IMG/VR virus record: IMGVR_UViG_2531839402_000001
Direction: 5' to 3' (one strand)
DNA: 64,000 bases
Source of the DNA: a virus
Taxonomy: Duplodnaviria; Heunggongvirae; Uroviricota; Caudoviricetes
How positions within the stretch are numbered: position 1 is the first letter of the stretch; the number at the start of each line of letters is the position of its first letter. The notes beneath the pieces are model-generated. The model saw only the letters and a program-made list of their open reading frames with translations, did no database searches and had not been told where the DNA came from. Below, piece by piece: positions 46,225 through 54,470 of this stretch. Position numbers and translations under genes: made by a program.

Positions 46225-46611
46225 ATGGCTACCAACGAAACAGAGATCAAACAAGGTCGCTACGCAGCTTACATTGACTCGTTAATCACAATCTCGCCTA
46301 AAAGTCAGGCTACCATTGCCAAAGAGGTTGGGTACAAGAACGCCAACAACCTCTCCCTCATCAAAAGCGGCAAAATCCCACTTCCAGTCGATAAGGTTCG
46401 AGCTTTAGCCGAAGCACTGGAGGCAGATCCGGTTCGACTGATGCTGATGGTTCTGGAAGAACGTCATCCTGAGCTGCTTGAGTTTTTTCGCGAAGAGGGC
46501 ACTGCACCTCTCTCCGCTGATGAAAAACTCGTTCTAGAAGCGTTCCGTAACCGTTTTGACGGTCAACAGGGTGCGTCAGAAAAGGTGGTAGAAGCCATCA
46601 AGTCACTGTGA
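46225..46611 (+). CDS. XRE-type HTH DNA-binding protein (putative repressor/regulator)
   Basis: HTH QATIAKEVGYKNANNLSLIKSGK. Divergent from the minus-strand module across an AT-rich promoter region. Confidence 0.5.
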   Translation: MATNETEIKQGRYAAYIDSLITISPKSQATIAKEVGYKNANNLSLIKSGKIPLPVDKVRALAEALEADPVRLMLMVLEERHPELLEFFREEGTAPLSADEKLVLEAFRNRFDGQQGASEKVVEAIKSL

Positions 46612-47709
46612 GAAATTTACACGAATAAGCTCCGTGGCTAGACGATCTCCCTTGAATTTGTGGTCTATCTCGTCTAAGTCTGTTTGATTAACGATAGATG
46701 CGATGTACGTTGAGAAGTTATTCAAGGCGTCTCGCATCTCATCCATATAATCGTGGCGATCATAGACGCGATCTATCCCTTCAAGACTGTGGTTCATAAT
46801 CTTACGGGCCACCTCCTGATTAATCCCCAGAGCAGGGAAATAACTACGCGCTGTACGTCTCAGATCGCGTGGGGTGAATGACTCAACCTCCATCAACTCA
46901 GGTCGTTCCAGTATCCTTCTCAGTGCCTGGGCAATGGCCACCTTAGACATTGGCGTATCCACGCCCTTCTTCTTATTCGAAGGAACGAGCCACTGGCTGC
47001 CTTTCCCGTACTCAAACAACTCTTCTACGCATTGGCGCATCAATGGGCTTAACGGCAGCGCGTGCTGTCTGGCCGATTTGTTTCGCGTACCTTGATTCCA
47101 TACATCACGTTGAAGGTTGAACTCATCCTTTCTGGCCCGGAGCACTTCATCGGGTCGTCTGGCGGCGACAAGACAGAGCCTGGCCGCCCACTTTGTGCCT
47201 TCGCACACATTGAAGTAATCCCAGACGTTCCAGAATACCCAGACCTCGGCGTCGGTCAGCTTACGTTCTCGCGGTACTGGCTTCGCGCCACCGGCAACTT
47301 TATTGAGCGACATATCATTCAACGGCGATGTATTAATCAGCCCCTGAAAAGCGCACCAGCTCAGGAACTGTTTCATTAGGGAGAATACGCGTCTGCCCTG
47401 GACGATCTTACCTTCCAGTATCAGTGGGTTCACCAGTTGGTTGACCAAGACCCTACTTATATCACTTACCTTTACTTCAGAGATATGCGGCATTACATGT
47501 ATCAAAACACAATGAACGGCTATTTCAGGTCGACGTCTCGTTATCAGTAAAGATAAGCGAGTGAATAACATGAAGGCGGAAGAAAACGACATGTCTCCGT
47601 CGAAATTGGCGGTCGACACTGCCGACAAACCGGAAGCGCGTTCGAGGTACTCGATGGCTTCCCGAGAGGTGTTTTCTGCTGCGCGTGCTTTATCAAAGGT
47701 GTTTTTCAT
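46603..47709 (-). CDS. Tyrosine recombinase / integrase
   Basis: C-terminal catalytic region with R...HxxR...Y (PRDLRRTARSY...HSLEGIDRVYDRHDY). Confidence 0.75.
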   Translation of the reverse strand: MKNTFDKARAAENTSREAIEYLERASGLSAVSTANFDGDMSFSSAFMLFTRLSLLITRRRPEIAVHCVLIHVMPHISEVKVSDISRVLVNQLVNPLILEGKIVQGRRVFSLMKQFLSWCAFQGLINTSPLNDMSLNKVAGGAKPVPRERKLTDAEVWVFWNVWDYFNVCEGTKWAARLCLVAARRPDEVLRARKDEFNLQRDVWNQGTRNKSARQHALPLSPLMRQCVEELFEYGKGSQWLVPSNKKKGVDTPMSKVAIAQALRRILERPELMEVESFTPRDLRRTARSYFPALGINQEVARKIMNHSLEGIDRVYDRHDYMDEMRDALNNFSTYIASIVNQTDLDEIDHKFKGDRLATELIRVNFSQ

Positions 47710-47881
47710 CGTCCACTCACTGAGTGAAACCTTTTACTGTATGTATGAACAGTATATTAGGCTTAAGTTTTTGTATGATCAACCATAAAATAGCCTGTTT
47801 TGTACAATGATTCCATACTTAATAGGTATGGAATCATTTAAGGCTGGAAATTTAAATTCTGAGATTTTATTAGCGTGATTG

Positions 47882-48292
47882 TCACGGATTAGTGAGAGCT
47901 TGAAATGCGGCGGCGTATGCAGCGATATCGGCCATGATTTTTGGATCTTTCGCATACTGATGTGCATTGCCCGGGAAGATTGCTAATAGACTATACACAT
48001 CTTGGAAATGTGCATGTTGACTGTAAACGAGTGCGCGGTCGCTTGTGCAATTGAATCTGTTGCGGCTGCTGGTTCGTTCTTGCTTCGTGAACAAGAGATG
48101 AACGTGATAAACGCGGGAGGACACGATAGCACCCGGAGCCGTATACGGGCCATCTTTGCCTAATACGGCTGGGCACATGCCTTGTTTAAGCGACGTGAAA
48201 TCGTCGAGTAACGTGATCTTTAAGTCAGGCTTTATATCGAAGGTCGGCTGTAAAAATTGGGCGTAACTATCACTGTTCCATGTGACCTTCAT
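47882..48292 (-). CDS. YafO-family toxin-like protein
   Basis: VYHVHLL and ALVYSQHAHFQDVYSLLAIFPGNAH align in order with E. coli YafO VAHIHL / AHLVYCQGAFDEQAWLLIAILKPEPH as remembered. Confidence 0.5.
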   Translation of the reverse strand: MKVTWNSDSYAQFLQPTFDIKPDLKITLLDDFTSLKQGMCPAVLGKDGPYTAPGAIVSSRVYHVHLLFTKQERTSSRNRFNCTSDRALVYSQHAHFQDVYSLLAIFPGNAHQYAKDPKIMADIAAYAAAFQALTNP

Positions 48293-48301
48293 CGTTCAAC
48301 C

Positions 48302-48910
48302 TCAATGGAATGAGAAGTTGGCGAAGACGTCCTCATCAATGAGGCCTGTCTGCGATTCGATGACGTCTACGTCGTTAAAACACTGATTTAAAATCAATAG
48401 CAGATCAGAGATAGCCAAACGATACTCAGTTACAGAATCGCTCAGGCGCTTCAAGTATGGATGAGGTTGCTCAGAGTCACGAATCAACTTGTTAACGAAT
48501 CCCTCCAAACCACGAATGGTCAGGTCAACGTTCTTCAGTTCTTCGTAACGGCTTTCACCGAAGCTGCTGCGAATCTTTTCCGCTTTCCATCCAGAGATGG
48601 CATTAGCCAGGCGAACGTGTTTCGCTGTCAATTCTGCGAGTTTGCTTTCGATCTCTGCCAGCTGTGCCGCATCGCTGTTCTCTTGAACAGGGATACCTGC
48701 GGTTCTCACATAGGCTTGTTCTTTGAATCCAGCAAATTTCGCAGAGTGCTTCACCGTGCCACGGAAGCGTCGATAGCCAAGCGGCTCAATAAAGGCACGC
48801 CCAGATTTAGCTTTAGGCTTTGTAGTTGAAAAGCGCGAGGCGTTAGAGGTCACAGTAGCAAGGGCATTGCTAATGACACTCATATCTTCCAGGCAATTTT
48901 CTAAACGCAT
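48302..48910 (-). CDS. Hypothetical protein upstream of yafO-like (candidate antitoxin of non-canonical size)
   Basis: 202-aa ORF, 9-bp gap to the yafO-like gene, not Phd/YefM/YafN-like. Confidence 0.4.
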   Translation of the reverse strand: MRLENCLEDMSVISNALATVTSNASRFSTTKPKAKSGRAFIEPLGYRRFRGTVKHSAKFAGFKEQAYVRTAGIPVQENSDAAQLAEIESKLAELTAKHVRLANAISGWKAEKIRSSFGESRYEELKNVDLTIRGLEGFVNKLIRDSEQPHPYLKRLSDSVTEYRLAISDLLLILNQCFNDVDVIESQTGLIDEDVFANFSFH

Positions 48911-49845: not shown

Positions 49846-50619
49846 TTACTGATAGGCTTCCAGAGCGACTTTGCATAGCTCAGAACGCACGCAGTCTTCG
49901 GCCGCAAACTCAATAAGGCCAACATGGGAGGAAGGTTTAAAACGCTCCAGTGCATCTTCCAGACCAGACTTAACATTGCCAGGCAGGTCGCATTGCGTCA
50001 CATCTCCGTTCACAATGACGGTTACGTTCTCGCCCATACGGGTCAGGAACATTTTCATTTGTGACGCTGTAACGTTTTGCGCCTCATCGAGAATGACTAC
50101 AGCGTTCTCGAACGTGCGCCCACGCATGTAAGCAAAGGGGGCAATCTCTACTTTGGCCACCTCTGGCTTTAAGCAATATTCAAGGAACGAGCCACCCAAA
50201 CGCTTCTGTAGCACGTCATAGACGGGCCGGAAGAACGGAGCGAACTTCTCGCTCATGTCGCCCGGAAGGAAACCCAGATCTTCTTCTGCTTGCAATACCG
50301 GACGCGTCACGATGATCTTCCCGACTTCCTTATCCAGCAGACGCTGCGCTGCGACGGCAGCAGCCAGGTAGGTCTTGCCGCAACCGGCTTCACCAGTGGC
50401 GAACGTCAGAGGTTTGGTATCGAGGGAGATAAGATAGTGGGCCTGGGCCTCGTTACGCGCTTCGATGGGAGAGTTGTCGCGTTTAGGTTTTGGTGGCAGA
50501 GTAGGGGCTGCAGCCAGCTCGTCAACGATGATTGTGTCAATTTCGTAGCCGTGGATGCGTGGCTTTGACTTCAGTGCCTGACGAGCTGCGCGACGCGCCT
50601 GTTTACGTTTGTTTCCCAT
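49846..50619 (-). CDS. phoH: PhoH-like ATPase
   Basis: Walker A GEAGCGKTYLAAA and PhoH core (IIVTRPVLQAEEDLGFLPGDMSEK...VVILDEAQN). Confidence 0.75.
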   Translation of the reverse strand: MGNKRKQARRAARQALKSKPRIHGYEIDTIIVDELAAAPTLPPKPKRDNSPIEARNEAQAHYLISLDTKPLTFATGEAGCGKTYLAAAVAAQRLLDKEVGKIIVTRPVLQAEEDLGFLPGDMSEKFAPFFRPVYDVLQKRLGGSFLEYCLKPEVAKVEIAPFAYMRGRTFENAVVILDEAQNVTASQMKMFLTRMGENVTVIVNGDVTQCDLPGNVKSGLEDALERFKPSSHVGLIEFAAEDCVRSELCKVALEAYQ

Positions 50620-50739
50620 ATTGAGTCCTTTCAAGTGAGTCACTGAAAGAACTATACCCGTAAATAATAGGTAAGTCATTACTTATTATTTGTGGTTCTG
50701 GACATCCCCATCTAGGGATGGGAAATCCCATCCAACGGC

Positions 50740-52131
50740 TTATGCTTCATGTTGCTTTTTGAGATCGCTTCTAGCATAGCTCCACTCAATAATGTTGTCG
50801 GGTCGTTGCTGATCGAAAAGGATTCGGGATTCAATACCATTACCTAAAAAGCTGGTATGCCCATCTACGTAAGAAGCTATCCCTTGCGAACCAACATGAA
50901 GAATATTTTCTAATGGTTGTTTTGTTCTCGCCGTATTGCTAAGGAGAAATAAACCTGGGTACGCTTTGTTAGCACGGTGAAAAAAAAGTTCATTGTCAAA
51001 ACACATGACGATGATTATTTGTCCCGACATGAGATCGGAGAGCATTTCAGTTGGCAGATGCAAACTCATAAATGGCCGAGACAAAGGGTCAAAGAATGAA
51101 TCGTTTATATTCACAACAGGGCTTTTTATATCGAGGCCATCCATCCATCCATTGAAGGCAACAAAACCCATTTTAGAATCACGGTACATACCTAAGAACA
51201 AACATTCATCAATAGTATCAATTGCCCAATTTTTTCCTCCGCGAATAATCTCCCACATTTTAACTAAACGGTGGGTATAAAACTCAGATGGATGGTCTAT
51301 CTCATCGATTTTAACTTTAGATTGATGAAGATTGTCAAAGCCCTCGCCAGTATTAATCGCCTCCAGCACATTCATACCACGAACGATTTGCCTTTTTATG
51401 CGATTAAATTGCTTAACATCATTTTCAGGCATATTGCTAATGAAGTTTTCTTCAAAGTTCGGACACTCTGAGATAACAGAAAATTCGGCAGCTTCATAAA
51501 GCTCATTATTCTTTTTGCCTGTTTTAACTTCCACGAGTTGAAAGCCATCCAGTGGATTAAAGGTGACTAAATCCCCCACATGAACAAATGTACTCATGTC
51601 AGAGACAATCGCTACGGCGTGTTTGTCCTGATTGATAAGATCGGCTGCGACCATAGAATCAATTATGTTATCTTCTGATAGATTGTCGTTGCCTGTATTA
51701 ATAGGTAAACGCCGCAAACTCGAGTGATCTTCATCAAGTATGCTCCAAATTAGTGAGTCAATACAACGGCGAAGAATAAGAATTTCAAATTTTTTTAAAT
51801 TTATTTCATCAATACACTTTTCTTTCTTTTCTTTATCCTTGTTTCGATGATGCTCTTTTTTTTCAACTTCCAATTTTTTTATATCTCGCAACCGAAAAAT
51901 AATCTCAAAAGATATAAGTTTCTGTGCGTCTTTCCAATTTTTGAGACAGATTTCATACTCTTCAAGAAAAATTTCATCATTGGAAGGTTGTTCTTGAATT
52001 GGGTCTTCACCCCTTATCATTTTGGCAAGTGAATGCAGTTGAAATACAAAGTGAGGTGATAAAATTGTCCAAAATTTTCTAAACGGTTTGTATTTTTCAA
52101 TAAAAGTTGATTCGTCAGTATAATTTATCAT
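50740..52131 (-). CDS. Hypothetical 463-aa protein; possible PD-(D/E)xK-like core; partner of the AbiH-like gene
   Basis: AT-rich codon usage. Central VHVGDLVTF...FQLVEVKTGK resembles a D...ExK nuclease core (weak). Lys/Glu-rich helical N-terminal region. Confidence 0.45.
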   Translation of the reverse strand: MINYTDESTFIEKYKPFRKFWTILSPHFVFQLHSLAKMIRGEDPIQEQPSNDEIFLEEYEICLKNWKDAQKLISFEIIFRLRDIKKLEVEKKEHHRNKDKEKKEKCIDEINLKKFEILILRRCIDSLIWSILDEDHSSLRRLPINTGNDNLSEDNIIDSMVAADLINQDKHAVAIVSDMSTFVHVGDLVTFNPLDGFQLVEVKTGKKNNELYEAAEFSVISECPNFEENFISNMPENDVKQFNRIKRQIVRGMNVLEAINTGEGFDNLHQSKVKIDEIDHPSEFYTHRLVKMWEIIRGGKNWAIDTIDECLFLGMYRDSKMGFVAFNGWMDGLDIKSPVVNINDSFFDPLSRPFMSLHLPTEMLSDLMSGQIIIVMCFDNELFFHRANKAYPGLFLLSNTARTKQPLENILHVGSQGIASYVDGHTSFLGNGIESRILFDQQRPDNIIEWSYARSDLKKQHEA

Positions 52132-52220
52132 AACTAAACTACCTCTTATCTATTTTTCTTAAGGTACAAACTGCCAGCCTTATTTTTTTACACAATTATA
52201 GTTATAATGTGAAGTCTCAT

Positions 52221-53093
52221 TCAGATATCTTCATACTGCACGTAAGAAATATTTGAGTCTCTGACATCATAATCTTCTAAGCTGCCTGACTTTTCCTCAC
52301 CTCTATATAAAGCAACTATCCATCGAGCATTTTCTTGGATGCTTTTATTTATTTCAGCGAAGTATTCACCGTCAACTTCGGCAAGCGAATGGCCTAAAAC
52401 AATGACCTCATCCACATTTTTAAGCGACGAGAAAAAAACGCTCTCTTCTTTAATTATGTTTTCGCTGGGCTTGAATGTATTACCGAAGTATTCGTCTATG
52501 CTGTCGTATGCTTCTGCTATTCTTGTATCTTGATCCGGCCCTATATATGGATTTAGTGACTTTTCAACCCTAAAACTGTGACCTAGTATGAGATCGTCAT
52601 CGTAAATACAATTGCCGTGAATATGCATGATTTGCGCGTCTGGAACGGCATAGATCTGCTGCAAGGTATTGGTATAATTAAATGAAAAATAGAGGCTTTC
52701 TCTTGATATGGGCGGGATGTATTGCTCAGAATTGCAAGCATCGGTTATGTTAATCCCTTTAACCCAATCAGCGAATTGCTCCTTCAAGCGAGCTGACAGC
52801 ATCCGTGTGATTTTATCTACTTCATATTGGTAATCGTGATGATAGGCATCGCTCCAATCATCGGTATTGTACGAAGCCAAAAACATCTCACTGTTTTGAA
52901 GGATAAGCTCATAATCAATTGCGCCTAAAGCACTTTCTAACTCGTTCCATTCGTCTCCAGCAGGCAGGTATTCTTCTATCGCGTCATATAGTTCTTGGTC
53001 ATGTTTTGCTACATACGACTTAAAGTGCTTGTATCCTGTTGGCAAGCCATGTCGAATATCAAATCCGTTTCCTATTATGTAAAGCCTCATCGT
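52221..53093 (-). CDS. AbiH-family abortive-infection-like protein
   Basis: N-terminal MRLYIIGNGFDIRHGLPTGYKHF matches the AbiH signature (LxIIGNGFDxxHGLxTxY). AT-rich. The start is chosen at this motif rather than the longer track ORF. Confidence 0.55.
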   Translation of the reverse strand, partial: TMRLYIIGNGFDIRHGLPTGYKHFKSYVAKHDQELYDAIEEYLPAGDEWNELESALGAIDYELILQNSEMFLASYNTDDWSDAYHHDYQYEVDKITRMLSARLKEQFADWVKGINITDACNSEQYIPPISRESLYFSFNYTNTLQQIYAVPDAQIMHIHGNCIYDDDLILGHSFRVEKSLNPYIGPDQDTRIAEAYDSIDEYFGNTFKPSENIIKEESVFFSSLKNVDEVIVLGHSLAEVDGEYFAEINKSIQENARWIVALYRGEEKSGSLEDYDVRDSNISYVQYEDI

Positions 53094-53385
53094 TTTTCCC
53101 TTAGTCGAATGGTAAAAAGATACTAACCGACTAAAGAAAAACATAAAACCAAAAGTCGCTATCAAATACAACCACGAATTTTCAATCTGACTACCAACCT
53201 CCATAGACGCAAAAAAGGGGCCGAAGCCCCTTTGGAATTTGCGCTAAAAAGTGTTGATACAATGCTAGGAATCAATGGTTAAGAACGTCTGCCGTGTCTA
53301 TCACAGCGCTGAACGGTCTGGCGACATTTGCGGAGTCTTTCCGTTCGGACGGTGGTGGCGAACTCCAAACCGTTCAGCGCTGTGT

Positions 53386-53460
53386 TGGCGATGGTGGGTG
53401 GACTCGAACCACCGACCAGTTGATTAAAAGTCAACCGCTCTACCACTGAGCTACACCATC
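53386..53460 (-). tRNA. tRNA-Lys (anticodon UUU)
   Basis: Cloverleaf folded by hand: acceptor GATGGTG/CACCATC, D-arm GCTC-AGTGGTA-GAGC, anticodon arm GTTGA-CTTTTAA-TCAAC, T-arm GGTGG-TTCGAGT-CCACC, discriminator G, encoded CCA. Confidence 0.8.
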
Positions 53461-53900
53461 ATTATTCGCGGCGGTACTTGTTCATGGACAACCAGGCAAC
53501 CAAGAACTTTCCCGCAACTTGCACTTTACGTTAGTGCCAGACGAGGCTTGTGGCTCGCTCACATAGAGCGAAGATCTGGAATCCTTCTCGGCGGTTGATG
53601 GCCGCCAGACTCTTCGATCTTATTGGATGTATGGAATCATCCATGTTGTGAAACCAGGGGCTACATAGGCAACAATGATTTCACCAGAGGGTTAAAGAAT
53701 CCTGCTTTCACAACGTTGAGGCCACTGAACCGATTTATGTTCGACCCAACATATTGATCAGTCACTACAGCTCTGTGGAATCACCTGTATGATTAAAAGA
53801 AAAACAGTGACCTCAACGTTGTGCGCTGGCTAACCAAGCCAGCCGGGTTACGTCGCCGCTTTTAACCCAAAATAAAACGACATAAGTAATGGAAATGACG

Positions 53901-53975
53901 TAACAGGATGGGCGGTCAGCTGTCTGAAACCGGGATGATGGAATGGAATGAGGAAACCAGCCGCCCATCCTGTTA
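53901..53975. other. 15-bp perfect inverted repeat (taacaggatgggcgg / ccgcccatcctgtta) with 45-nt loop in an ORF-free region
   Basis: Seen directly in sequence; lies within a 1.26-kb stretch without ORFs >60 aa. Confidence 0.4.
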
Positions 53976-54470
53976 CTTCATCGAATAGGGCATGGGTGGT
54001 GCAACATGCCCTATCCTGCGTTCTGCAAGGGGTGAGTTTGGAGATCGGAAATTATTGTACGTTAAGCCTGTTTTTTGAACAGATCGCGCTATCGCAATAG
54101 GGTGTACTCCTGCACTATACGGCATTTAGCCTGTATGTTTGGGTAATGAGAAAACCTAAATGCGACAGCGTGAGCGCAATAACTTAAATGCGATAGTCAG
54201 TGACAATAAATCAATCAGTTACCAATCAGAAACGGTTAAATTATGTTCTTAACGTACAATAATTTCCGTTTCCCAAACCGACCCCTGCAATCACACTCGC
54301 TCAGTGTGTCCCATTTCGGTGACGAGGCTGGAAACTGACCTCGCTGGTGTTTGGCTTCTTAGGCTACTGCCAGGTACGTATCTTCGTTTGCAGTTATATT
54401 TAACGTTCAAACAGTCGCGTCTCAACGAAAACAAATGAATCTTATACATAATAGATAAGTAAGTAAATAC

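What the first reader, a model, noticed from the sequence alone, without database searches (positions are those of the whole stretch)
50680..53204. AbiH-like gene plus 463-aa partner in an AT-rich cassette beside the phage tRNA-Lys
The 52221..53093 product starts with LYIIGNGFDIRHGLPTGYKHF, the hallmark of the lactococcal AbiH abortive-infection family. It is followed after 89 bp, co-directionally, by a 463-aa protein of no recognisable family. That protein has a possible D...E-V-K nuclease-like core. Both genes are markedly AT-rich versus the phoH/nrd backbone, and the pair is wedged between phoH and a tRNA-Lys plus a 1.2-kb ORF-free region, a classic insertion hotspot. AbiH mechanism is unknown, and a conserved two-gene arrangement would be new.
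Basis: partly seen in the sequence, partly recalled or inferred. Interest (0 to 1): 0.8.

Follow-up and report, generated by a model that had tools for sequence, protein, structure and literature searches.

The report
AbiH plus DS-37 defence gene pair
Two neighbouring anti-phage genes, AbiH and the recently validated nuclease-like DS-37, sit as a 2.4-kb AT-rich cassette in a variable spot of an SSU5-like phage-plasmid; both genes and their pairing are already published, so only whether they cooperate is open.

Summary
On the minus strand, AbiH lies at 52221-53093 (290 aa; Pfam PF14253, E=1.5e-69). After an 89-bp gap comes a 463-aa gene at 50740-52131. Both sit in a 2.5-kb block of 37.7% GC (window 49.1%) between phoH and tRNA-Lys of an SSU5-like phage-plasmid.

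The "partner of no recognisable family" is DS-37. It is 90.9% identical to E. coli WP_000982358.1. DeWeirdt et al. (Science 2026) cloned that protein as a single gene and found it defensive (Bas69 4.3 log, SECphi27 1.9 log). They classed it as PD-(D/E)XK.

The pairing is published too: 71% of 341 DS-37 instances colocalise with AbiH (Microlife 2026).

My own data show that the pairing is lineage-specific.
- 26 of 27 loci with DS-37 at 81% identity or more have AbiH upstream.
- 0 of 63 loci at 62% or less do. There DS-37 relatives stand alone or follow PD-T4-5/Abi_2, PDC-S19, AbiK and others.
- A 94%-identical AbiH occurs without DS-37, with the breakpoint 7 bp after its stop codon.

D178, D187, E201, K203, G205, R244 and Q248 are invariant across 124 distant relatives. 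Fold searches did not confirm a nuclease fold.

Verdict: two stacked single-gene defences in a cargo hotspot. This is already known and of low novelty. Cooperation between the two is untested.

The parts
52221..53093 (-). abiH: 290-aa AbiH-family (SIR2-like) single-gene abortive-infection protein. The longest ORF runs on to 53204 (327 aa), but that extension lies outside the conserved cassette.
   Evidence: Pfam PF14253 E=1.5e-69. PADLOC AbiH 1e-28. phrog_19951 E=1e-178. RefSeq annotates the 290-aa form as WP_004110166. Cassette homology ends at 53126-53128.
52132..52220 (-). 89-bp intergenic spacer between abiH and the DS-37 gene. It has no terminator-like hairpin, and an AAGAGG-like ribosome-binding site lies about 12 nt before the ATG. 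The recombination breakpoint that separates the AbiH module from the DS-37 module lies at its 5' edge (52214).
   Evidence: Sequence read. Terminator and promoter scan. Providencia plasmids share 52214..53126 at 94% identity and nothing downstream.
50740..52131 (-). DS-37 homologue, 463 aa. The model shows an N-terminal helical hairpin (about residues 52-131), then a PD-(D/E)xK-like core carrying D178, D187, E201-V-K203, G205, N208, R244 and Q248, then a C-terminal alpha/beta domain of unknown role.
   Evidence: 421 of 463 residues (90.9%) are identical to WP_000982358.1, which is DS-37/'SC24'. AF2 model pLDDT 85.4, pTM 0.85. Invariant residues. The family has 701 representatives at 50% clustering.
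50695..53208 (.). Variable cargo block of the phage-plasmid backbone, 2514 bp at 37.7% GC. The portable AbiH+DS-37 cassette shared with E. coli lambdoid prophages is 50708..53128.
   Evidence: Homology to cassette-less relatives ends at 50694 and resumes at 53209-53211. E. coli H240 and prophage contigs match 50708/50718..53127/53128 at 92-93%. GC values.
49846..50679 (-). phoH, the backbone gene that forms the left border of the hotspot.
   Evidence: ORF. Annotated as phoH in all related plasmids.
53386..53460 (-). tRNA-Lys (anticodon UUU), a backbone feature at the right border of the hotspot.
   Evidence: ARAGORN. Rfam RF00005, 76.7 bits.

Best explanation
The locus holds two independently functional single-gene anti-phage modules. 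They are stacked head-to-tail and travel together as a 2.4-kb cassette. That cassette landed in the phoH/tRNA-Lys accessory-gene hotspot of an SSU5-like phage-plasmid.

Module 1, AbiH. This is a SIR2-like protein. It most likely aborts infection by degrading NAD+ once it is triggered. That step is inferred from the fold class reported in the literature and was not shown here.

Module 2, DS-37. This is a 463-aa protein whose invariant D-x8-D-x13-E-x-K core most likely forms a PD-(D/E)xK metal-dependent nuclease site that cuts nucleic acid during infection. The motif is shown here; the activity is inferred. The helical hairpin and the C-terminal domain presumably provide oligomerisation and sensing or auto-inhibition (inferred).

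The phage-plasmid gains by protecting its host, and so itself, from competing phages. Carrying two mechanistically different effectors widens the range of phages blocked and makes escape harder. Any cooperation beyond this additive effect is unproven.
For: Shown here:
- AbiH membership.
- DS-37 identity of 90.9%.
- The site is a hotspot: 4 of 945 related plasmids carry the cassette, and others carry an HNH-like gene set or a solo 49%-identical AbiH at the same place.
- The cassette is mobile. The same 2.4 kb sits at 92-93% identity in Qin/Rac-like lambdoid prophages of 65 of 5426 complete E. coli genomes, and next to a dGTPase defence gene on metagenomic prophage contigs.
- The two genes are separable. 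A 94%-identical AbiH occurs on about 20 Providencia plasmids without DS-37, with the breakpoint 7 bp past the AbiH stop. It is followed either by an unrelated 484-aa protein (hhalign probability 0.15%) or by nothing co-directional.
- DS-37 relatives occur alone. Examples are a P2 prophage tail hotspot, an Aeromonas island beside a Gabija-like pair, a small Mob plasmid, and sites beside integrases.
- DS-37 relatives also follow other single-gene defences: PD-T4-5/Abi_2, PDC-S19/DUF3644, AbiK, PDC-S31, Mrr_cat/PDC-S02, PDC-S54 and PDC-S18.
- 26 of 27 loci with DS-37 at 81% identity or more have AbiH upstream, against 0 of 63 loci at 62% or less.

From papers:
- DS-37 cloned alone protects E. coli MG1655 (PMC13092281 Tables S6 and S7).
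- AbiH alone protects Lactococcus, S. thermophilus and Vibrio, and is SIR2-like.
Against: - This particular AbiH allele has never been tested alone.
- The two genes share one strand with an 89-bp gap and no terminator, so they may be co-transcribed.
- The cassette has been inherited intact across three kinds of mobile element, with equal divergence of both genes (90.3% and 90.9%). That fits a selected unit.
- The published 71% colocalisation of DS-37 with AbiH is higher than ordinary defence-island neighbourhood usually gives.
Confidence: 0.7

Rival explanations
1. AbiH and DS-37 form a functionally coupled pair, either synergistic or with DS-37 as an accessory or back-up. For example, DS-37 might fire when AbiH is triggered (NAD+ loss or ADP-ribose), or when a phage inhibitor neutralises AbiH. 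The cassette would then be selected as a unit even though each gene keeps some activity alone.
For: - 240 of 341 DS-37 instances colocalise with AbiH, and the authors propose synergy or an accessory role (PMC13639185).
- The order, 88-89-bp spacing and orientation are the same in every copy.
- There is no terminator between the genes.
- Both genes have diverged equally.
- Distant DS-37 relatives very often sit directly 3' of another single-gene abortive-infection gene with gaps of 16-18 bp. These are PD-T4-5/Abi_2 in two clades 45-55% identical to the window protein, and PDC-S19.
- Phage inhibitors of AbiH exist (Tlaloc and Enki), so a back-up layer would be useful.
Against: - All AbiH-linked copies belong to one shallow lineage, so the 71% may count one ancestral event many times.
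- A 94%-identical AbiH lives without DS-37.
- DS-37 defends on its own.
- Many DS-37 relatives are solitary.
- The upstream neighbours are unrelated effectors (SIR2, HEPN-like, reverse transcriptase, Mrr) with no shared signal that DS-37 could read.
Confidence: 0.22
2. The two form an obligate two-component system. One protein would be the sensor and the other the effector, and neither would work alone in its native context.
For: Tight co-directional arrangement and co-inheritance. This AbiH is only 290 aa, little more than the SIR2-like domain, with no obvious sensor domain.
Against: - DS-37 alone is defensive.
- AbiH is a one-gene system in three genera.
- Solo AbiH occupies the very same hotspot in about 55 Klebsiella phage-plasmids.
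- Near-identical AbiH occurs without DS-37.
- None of 63 distant DS-37 loci has an AbiH.
Confidence: 0.04
3. The cassette serves the phage-plasmid itself rather than host defence. It would act as an addiction or stabilisation module, or as an exclusion module against other plasmids and phage-plasmids.
For: - It sits in a plasmid-maintenance neighbourhood, with a YafO toxin and an integrase just upstream.
- An SSU5-like Klebsiella plasmid lowers both phage plating and plasmid uptake (PMC8969562).
Against: - Neither gene resembles a toxin-antitoxin pair.
- Only 4 of 945 related plasmids carry the cassette, so it is dispensable for maintenance.
- The same cassette lives in chromosomal prophages.
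- DS-37 was validated against lytic phages.
Confidence: 0.04

Closest known systems
DS-37 (DefensePredictor system 'SC24', WP_000982358.1; DeWeirdt et al., Science 2026, PMC13092281)
   Same: Same length (463 aa) and 90.9% identity over the full length. It has the same upstream AbiH neighbour in E. coli prophages. It carries the same D187/E201-x-K203 motif and is classed by the authors as PD-(D/E)XK.
   Different: The window copy sits on an SSU5-like phage-plasmid rather than in a chromosomal lambdoid prophage, and differs at 42 residues. It has not been tested itself. The mechanism of DS-37 is unknown in either copy.
AbiH (Lactococcus lactis abiH, Pfam PF14253; SIR2-like 'SIRim' proteins)
   Same: Full-length match to the family profile, including the N-terminal IIGNGFD glycine-rich loop. 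It is a single-domain protein carried on mobile elements.
   Different: It is enterobacterial and shorter than the lactococcal prototype. No assay exists for this allele. NADase activity is inferred from the fold class only.
AbiH/DS-37 'synton' (PMC13639185, Microlife 2026)
   Same: Same two genes in the same adjacency.
   Different: That study used DefenseFinder's DS-37 model and counted 341 instances. The exhaustive profile search here finds 701 family representatives at 50% clustering, and outside one shallow lineage none of the loci sampled from the wider family has an AbiH neighbour.
Shedu (SduA, DUF4263) and NERD-type PD-(D/E)xK defence nucleases
   Same: A single protein with a PD-(D/E)xK-type motif plus extra N-terminal and C-terminal regions, found in defence islands and prophage hotspots. 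There are weak sub-threshold hits: SduA_C in 2 of 100 relatives at E=0.013, and NERD at HHpred probability 0.47 in the paper.
   Different: There is no significant sequence or fold match. The long helical hairpin and the roughly 200-aa C-terminal domain have no counterpart that I could detect.
Defence hotspots of temperate elements (for example the P2 and P4 hotspots)
   Same: A fixed backbone site with interchangeable, AT-rich defence cargo. DS-37 relatives also occupy a P2-like tail-gene hotspot.
   Different: Here the site lies between phoH and tRNA-Lys of an SSU5-group phage-plasmid. I found no paper that names this particular site.

Membership tests
AbiH (PF14253) | Full-length match to the family profile above the curated threshold | tested here: met
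   235.5 bits against a cutoff of 30.9, covering profile positions 1-258 of 260. PADLOC AbiH 1e-28.
AbiH (PF14253) | Acts as a one-gene anti-phage system | not testable with these tools
   Shown for other alleles in the literature. Solo occurrence of 94% and 49% homologues supports it indirectly.
SIR2-like (SIRim) NADases | Rossmann-type SIR2 fold with catalytic Asn and His, and NAD+ hydrolysis | not tested
   Taken from PMC13064643 and bioRxiv 10.1101/2024.09.18.613514. A sequence search of the PDB found nothing.
DS-37 | Full-length homology to the validated protein WP_000982358.1 | tested here: met
   421 of 463 residues identical with no indels. The accession was matched in Tables S6 and S8 of PMC13092281.
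DS-37 | Confers phage resistance as a single gene | not testable with these tools
   Published for the 91%-identical E. coli protein (Bas69 4.3 log, SECphi27 1.9 log). Not shown for this copy.
PD-(D/E)xK nuclease superfamily | D ... (D/E)-x-K motif on a beta-hairpin after a helix and a first strand, conserved across the family | tested here: met
   D187, E201 and K203 are invariant in 124 sequences. In the model the order is helix 153-167, strand 173-176, strand 188-192, strand 196-200, helix 206-221.
PD-(D/E)xK nuclease superfamily | Significant sequence-profile or fold similarity to a known member | tested here: inconclusive
Obligate two-gene defence system (AbiH + partner) | The two genes co-occur across the diversity of both families | tested here: not met
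   0 of 63 loci with DS-37 relatives at 62% identity or less have AbiH. Only 12% of AbiH instances have DS-37. A 94%-identical AbiH occurs without DS-37.

The most novel reading that the evidence does not exclude
DS-37-family nucleases may be a generic second-layer module that is repeatedly recruited directly downstream of unrelated single-gene abortive-infection effectors. These include AbiH/SIR2, PD-T4-5/Abi_2, PDC-S19/DUF3644, AbiK and Mrr-type nucleases. The module would fire when the upstream effector is activated or is neutralised by a phage inhibitor. On this reading the AbiH+DS-37 cassette is a layered, inhibitor-proof unit rather than two chance neighbours.
Probability: 0.15. Interest if true: 0.7.

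Novelty: already known. Interest (0 to 1): 0.25.

Why it matters
The locus is a clean natural example of phage-plasmids carrying exchangeable anti-phage cargo at a fixed backbone site. It is also an example of a ready-made two-gene defence cassette moving between prophages and phage-plasmids of clinical Enterobacteriaceae.

The one scientifically open point is whether AbiH and DS-37 cooperate. Neither protein has a demonstrated biochemical mechanism. The pair is small (2.4 kb) and easily cloned. The seven invariant DS-37 residues identified here give direct mutagenesis targets.

If the two genes only stack, the locus is ordinary.

Tried and rejected
1. Pfam, PADLOC v2, NCBIfam and PHROGs gave nothing for the partner. 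The same was true for 100 distant relatives scanned one by one.
2. PDB sequence-profile searches with 24-sequence and 124-sequence profiles gave nothing meaningful.
4. I tested whether the 484-aa protein after AbiH on Providencia plasmids is a diverged DS-37. It is not (hhalign probability 0.15%).
5. tblastn of both proteins against 50,697 GenBank phage records found no match.
6. I looked for flanking direct or inverted repeats that would mark an insertion mechanism for the cassette and found none convincing.
7. N-terminally extended family members (669-680 aa) had no Pfam domain that could hint at function.
8. I did not rely on the 'ExK / D' position columns of Table S8 in PMC13092281. They appear out of register with their rows.
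Full report
**What is in the sequence**

Both genes lie on the minus strand. The ORF at 52221..53204 (327 aa) contains the AbiH domain from its 38th codon. The 290-aa product that starts at 53093 (MRLYIIGNGFD...) matches Pfam PF14253 over 258 of 260 profile positions (E=1.5e-69, 235 bits against a cutoff of 30.9). It also matches PADLOC AbiH (1e-28).

The shorter start is the likely true one, for two reasons. RefSeq annotates 290 aa in the 99.8%-identical Klebsiella oxytoca plasmid. Homology to all other copies of the cassette ends at 53126-53128.

Eighty-nine bases downstream (52132-52220) begins a 463-aa ORF at 50740..52131. The gap holds no terminator-like hairpin and has a ribosome-binding site. 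This protein has no hit at E<=1 in Pfam, PADLOC v2.0, NCBIfam or PHROGs.

tRNA-Lys(UUU) is at 53386-53460. GC is 0.377 over 50695-53208, against 0.526 for phoH and 0.491 for the window.

**Context**

The window is an SSU5/pHCM2-type phage-plasmid. 945 plasmids in PLSDB share the flanks, but only four carry this cassette.

Backbone homology to cassette-less relatives stops at 50694, 15 bp beyond the phoH start codon. It resumes at 53209-53211. The relatives carry other cargo at that site:
- Enterobacter and Salmonella plasmids have a 262-aa protein with an HNH-endonuclease-like N-terminus (PADLOC PDC-M68A 1e-22), plus one or two unknown genes.
- About 55 Klebsiella phage-plasmids have a solitary AbiH only 49% identical to this one.

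The site is therefore a genuine cargo hotspot.

**The cassette is portable**

Window 50708-53128 recurs at 92-93% identity in Qin/Rac-like lambdoid prophages. There it lies between the replication genes and hokD. 65 of 5426 complete E. coli genomes carry it, and roughly 50 more carry IS-truncated remnants. It also occurs on metagenomic prophage contigs beside a dGTPase defence gene.

**Identity of the partner**

The E. coli copy is WP_000982358.1. That accession is system 'SC24' = DS-37 in the DefensePredictor study (PMC13092281).
- Table S6 lists it as a single CDS (1392 bp) cloned under pBAD in MG1655 and scored defensive.
- Table S7 gives 4.3 log protection against Bas69 and 1.9 log against SECphi27.
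- Table S8 labels it PDDEXK on the basis of an HHpred match to NERD (residues 154-204, probability 0.47).
- The text counts it among 14 PD-(D/E)XK proteins whose models overlay the EcoRI catalytic region.

The window protein is 421/463 (90.9%) identical to it, without indels.

A 2026 paper on conserved gene neighbourhoods reports that 240 of 341 DS-37 instances (71%) colocalise with AbiH. Only 12% of 1885 AbiH instances have DS-37. The authors suggest synergy or an accessory role (PMC13639185). A 2025 preprint lists AbiH and DS-37 among the defence systems of SSU5-group phage-plasmids. Both genes, and their pairing, are therefore already in the literature.

**What I could add: the DS-37 family**

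A word-indexed search found only 44 clusters, all in Enterobacterales and Aeromonas. An exhaustive profile search found 701 representatives at 50% clustering (199 at E<=1e-30). Most are 440-490 aa, and none has a Pfam domain.

Across 124 of them (mean column identity 21%), seven residues are invariant: D178, D187, E201, K203, G205, R244 and Q248. N208, G186 and P444 are nearly invariant.

The AF2 model (pLDDT 85.4, pTM 0.85) has three parts. A long helical hairpin spans about residues 52-131. It is followed by helix 153-167, strand 173-176, strands 188-192 and 196-200, and helix 206-221. A C-terminal alpha/beta domain completes the protein. D187 opens the second strand and E201-x-K203 closes the third, which is the classical PD-(D/E)xK layout.

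I could not confirm the fold independently, however.
- PDB profile searches were empty.
- The only recurrent sub-threshold Pfam hit was the Shedu nuclease domain, in 2 of 100 relatives at E=0.013.

The nuclease assignment thus rests on a very strong motif and on the published overlay. It does not rest on a significant match obtained here.

**What I could add: the pairing**

I collected 107 loci that encode DS-37 relatives, from genomes, plasmids, viral contigs and metagenomes. The set is not de-replicated.
- Of 27 loci with a relative at 81% identity or more and enough upstream DNA, 26 have AbiH immediately upstream, with the same 88-89-bp spacing.
- Of 63 loci with a relative at 62% identity or less and enough upstream DNA, none has an AbiH.

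In those 63 loci the gene is found in three kinds of setting:
- Solitary. Examples are a P2-like prophage tail hotspot, an Aeromonas island beside a Gabija-like pair, and a small Mob plasmid.
- Next to an integrase or P2 gpD.
- Directly after another defence gene. These are PD-T4-5/Abi_2 (16-bp gap, in two clades 55% and 45-46% identical to the window protein), PDC-S19/DUF3644 (17-bp gap), AbiK, PDC-S31/DUF2971, Mrr_cat/PDC-S02, PDC-S54, PDC-S18 and a TIR-like protein.

Conversely, a 94%-identical AbiH sits on about 20 Providencia plasmids without DS-37. The shared DNA is 52214-53126, so the break falls 7 bp after the AbiH stop codon. Downstream there is either an unrelated 484-aa protein (hhalign probability 0.15%) or a convergent gene.

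The two genes are therefore separable modules. Their linkage traces to one shallow lineage.

**Mechanism**

AbiH is treated in recent literature as a one-gene, SIR2-like (SIRim) system. It is active in Lactococcus, S. thermophilus and Vibrio (5.7 log in Vibrio), and the proposed mechanism is NAD+ depletion. I did not test the SIR2 fold here. DS-37 is active alone.

The best-supported reading (about 0.7) is two independent single-gene abortive or degradative defences, stacked in a hotspot and mobilised together. One depletes NAD+ and the other cuts nucleic acid.

Functional coupling, as synergy or back-up, stays possible (about 0.2). Points in its favour:
- The spacing is fixed and there is no terminator between the genes.
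- Both genes have diverged equally (90.3% and 90.9%).
- The published colocalisation figure is 71%.
- DS-37 relatives tend to sit directly 3' of other single-gene Abi effectors.

An obligate sensor-effector pair is essentially excluded by the single-gene assays and by the solo occurrences.

**Verdict**

The feature is real and correctly spotted, but it is not new. AbiH is a known family. The '463-aa orphan' is DS-37. The AbiH-DS-37 neighbourhood and its presence in SSU5-group phage-plasmids are published.

The remaining value is modest. The locus adds a defined hotspot (phoH/tRNA-Lys), precise cassette and module boundaries, a much larger DS-37 family with seven invariant residues, and evidence that the AbiH linkage is lineage-specific. 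I score interest at 0.25 and novelty as 'already known'.

Noticed in passing
window 54028-54286: A 259-bp element bounded by 39-nt inverted repeats (87% complementary). It coincides exactly with a stretch missing from related phage-plasmids, where homology breaks at 54028 and 54285. It looks like a MITE-like insertion in the roughly 1-kb non-coding region beyond the tRNA.
   Followed up: partly
window 53302-53384 and 53640-53981: There are several strong hairpins in the non-coding stretch. One, with 20-nt arms 95% complementary, lies directly 3' of tRNA-Lys on the minus strand. Others are at 53709/53805 and 53895/53961. No Rfam family matched.
   Followed up: partly
L003 2433-3816 and L004 2433-4623 (same hotspot in Enterobacter and Salmonella Typhi phage-plasmids): The alternative cargo at the phoH/tRNA site is a 262-aa protein with an HNH-endonuclease-like N-terminus (PADLOC PDC-M68A 1e-22; also CBASS HNH effector models), plus 184-aa and 242-aa unknowns. 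This may be another uncharacterised defence set.
   Followed up: partly
L027 5004-5876 (Klebsiella pneumoniae p2_020143 and about 55 similar plasmids): A solitary AbiH only 49% identical to the window's occupies the same phoH-adjacent site in Klebsiella SSU5-like phage-plasmids. The hotspot has therefore acquired AbiH-family genes at least twice.
   Followed up: yes
L013 4920-8049; L079-L084; L086 and L088 2872-3942: DS-37 relatives in Pantoea/Erwinia and in a second clade (45-46% identity) are preceded, 16 bp upstream, by an Abi_2/PD-T4-5 gene. In Pantoea a conserved 184-aa unknown gene follows. This pairing spans more divergence than the AbiH one.
   Followed up: partly
L038 and L039 (E. coli FMU073332, ECONIH4) and about 50 other E. 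coli chromosomes: Remnants of the cassette survive in Qin-like prophages. AbiH is cut down to its first 76-200 codons by IS3 insertion and DS-37 is deleted, yet the remnant is still annotated as 'AbiH family protein'.
   Followed up: yes
window 46603-48910: The backbone just upstream of the hotspot carries a tyrosine integrase (46603-47709), a YafO-family toxin (47882-48292) and a 202-aa gene that overlaps its promoter side (48302-48910). This could be a toxin-antitoxin or maintenance module.
   Followed up: no
PMC13092281, Table S8 (domains sheet): The last two columns (apparent ExK and D positions) seem out of register with their rows. A 332-aa protein is given 412-414, and the pair 201-203/187, which fits DS-37 exactly, is printed on another system's row.
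   Followed up: no
L036 5001-7037 (P0153-P0155): A subgroup of DS-37 relatives carries a roughly 245-aa N-terminal extension with no Pfam match. The gene overlaps an upstream SRAP (abasic-site sensor) gene by 4 bp and lies next to imuB/dnaE2-type mutagenesis genes. This is a non-defence-looking context.
   Followed up: no
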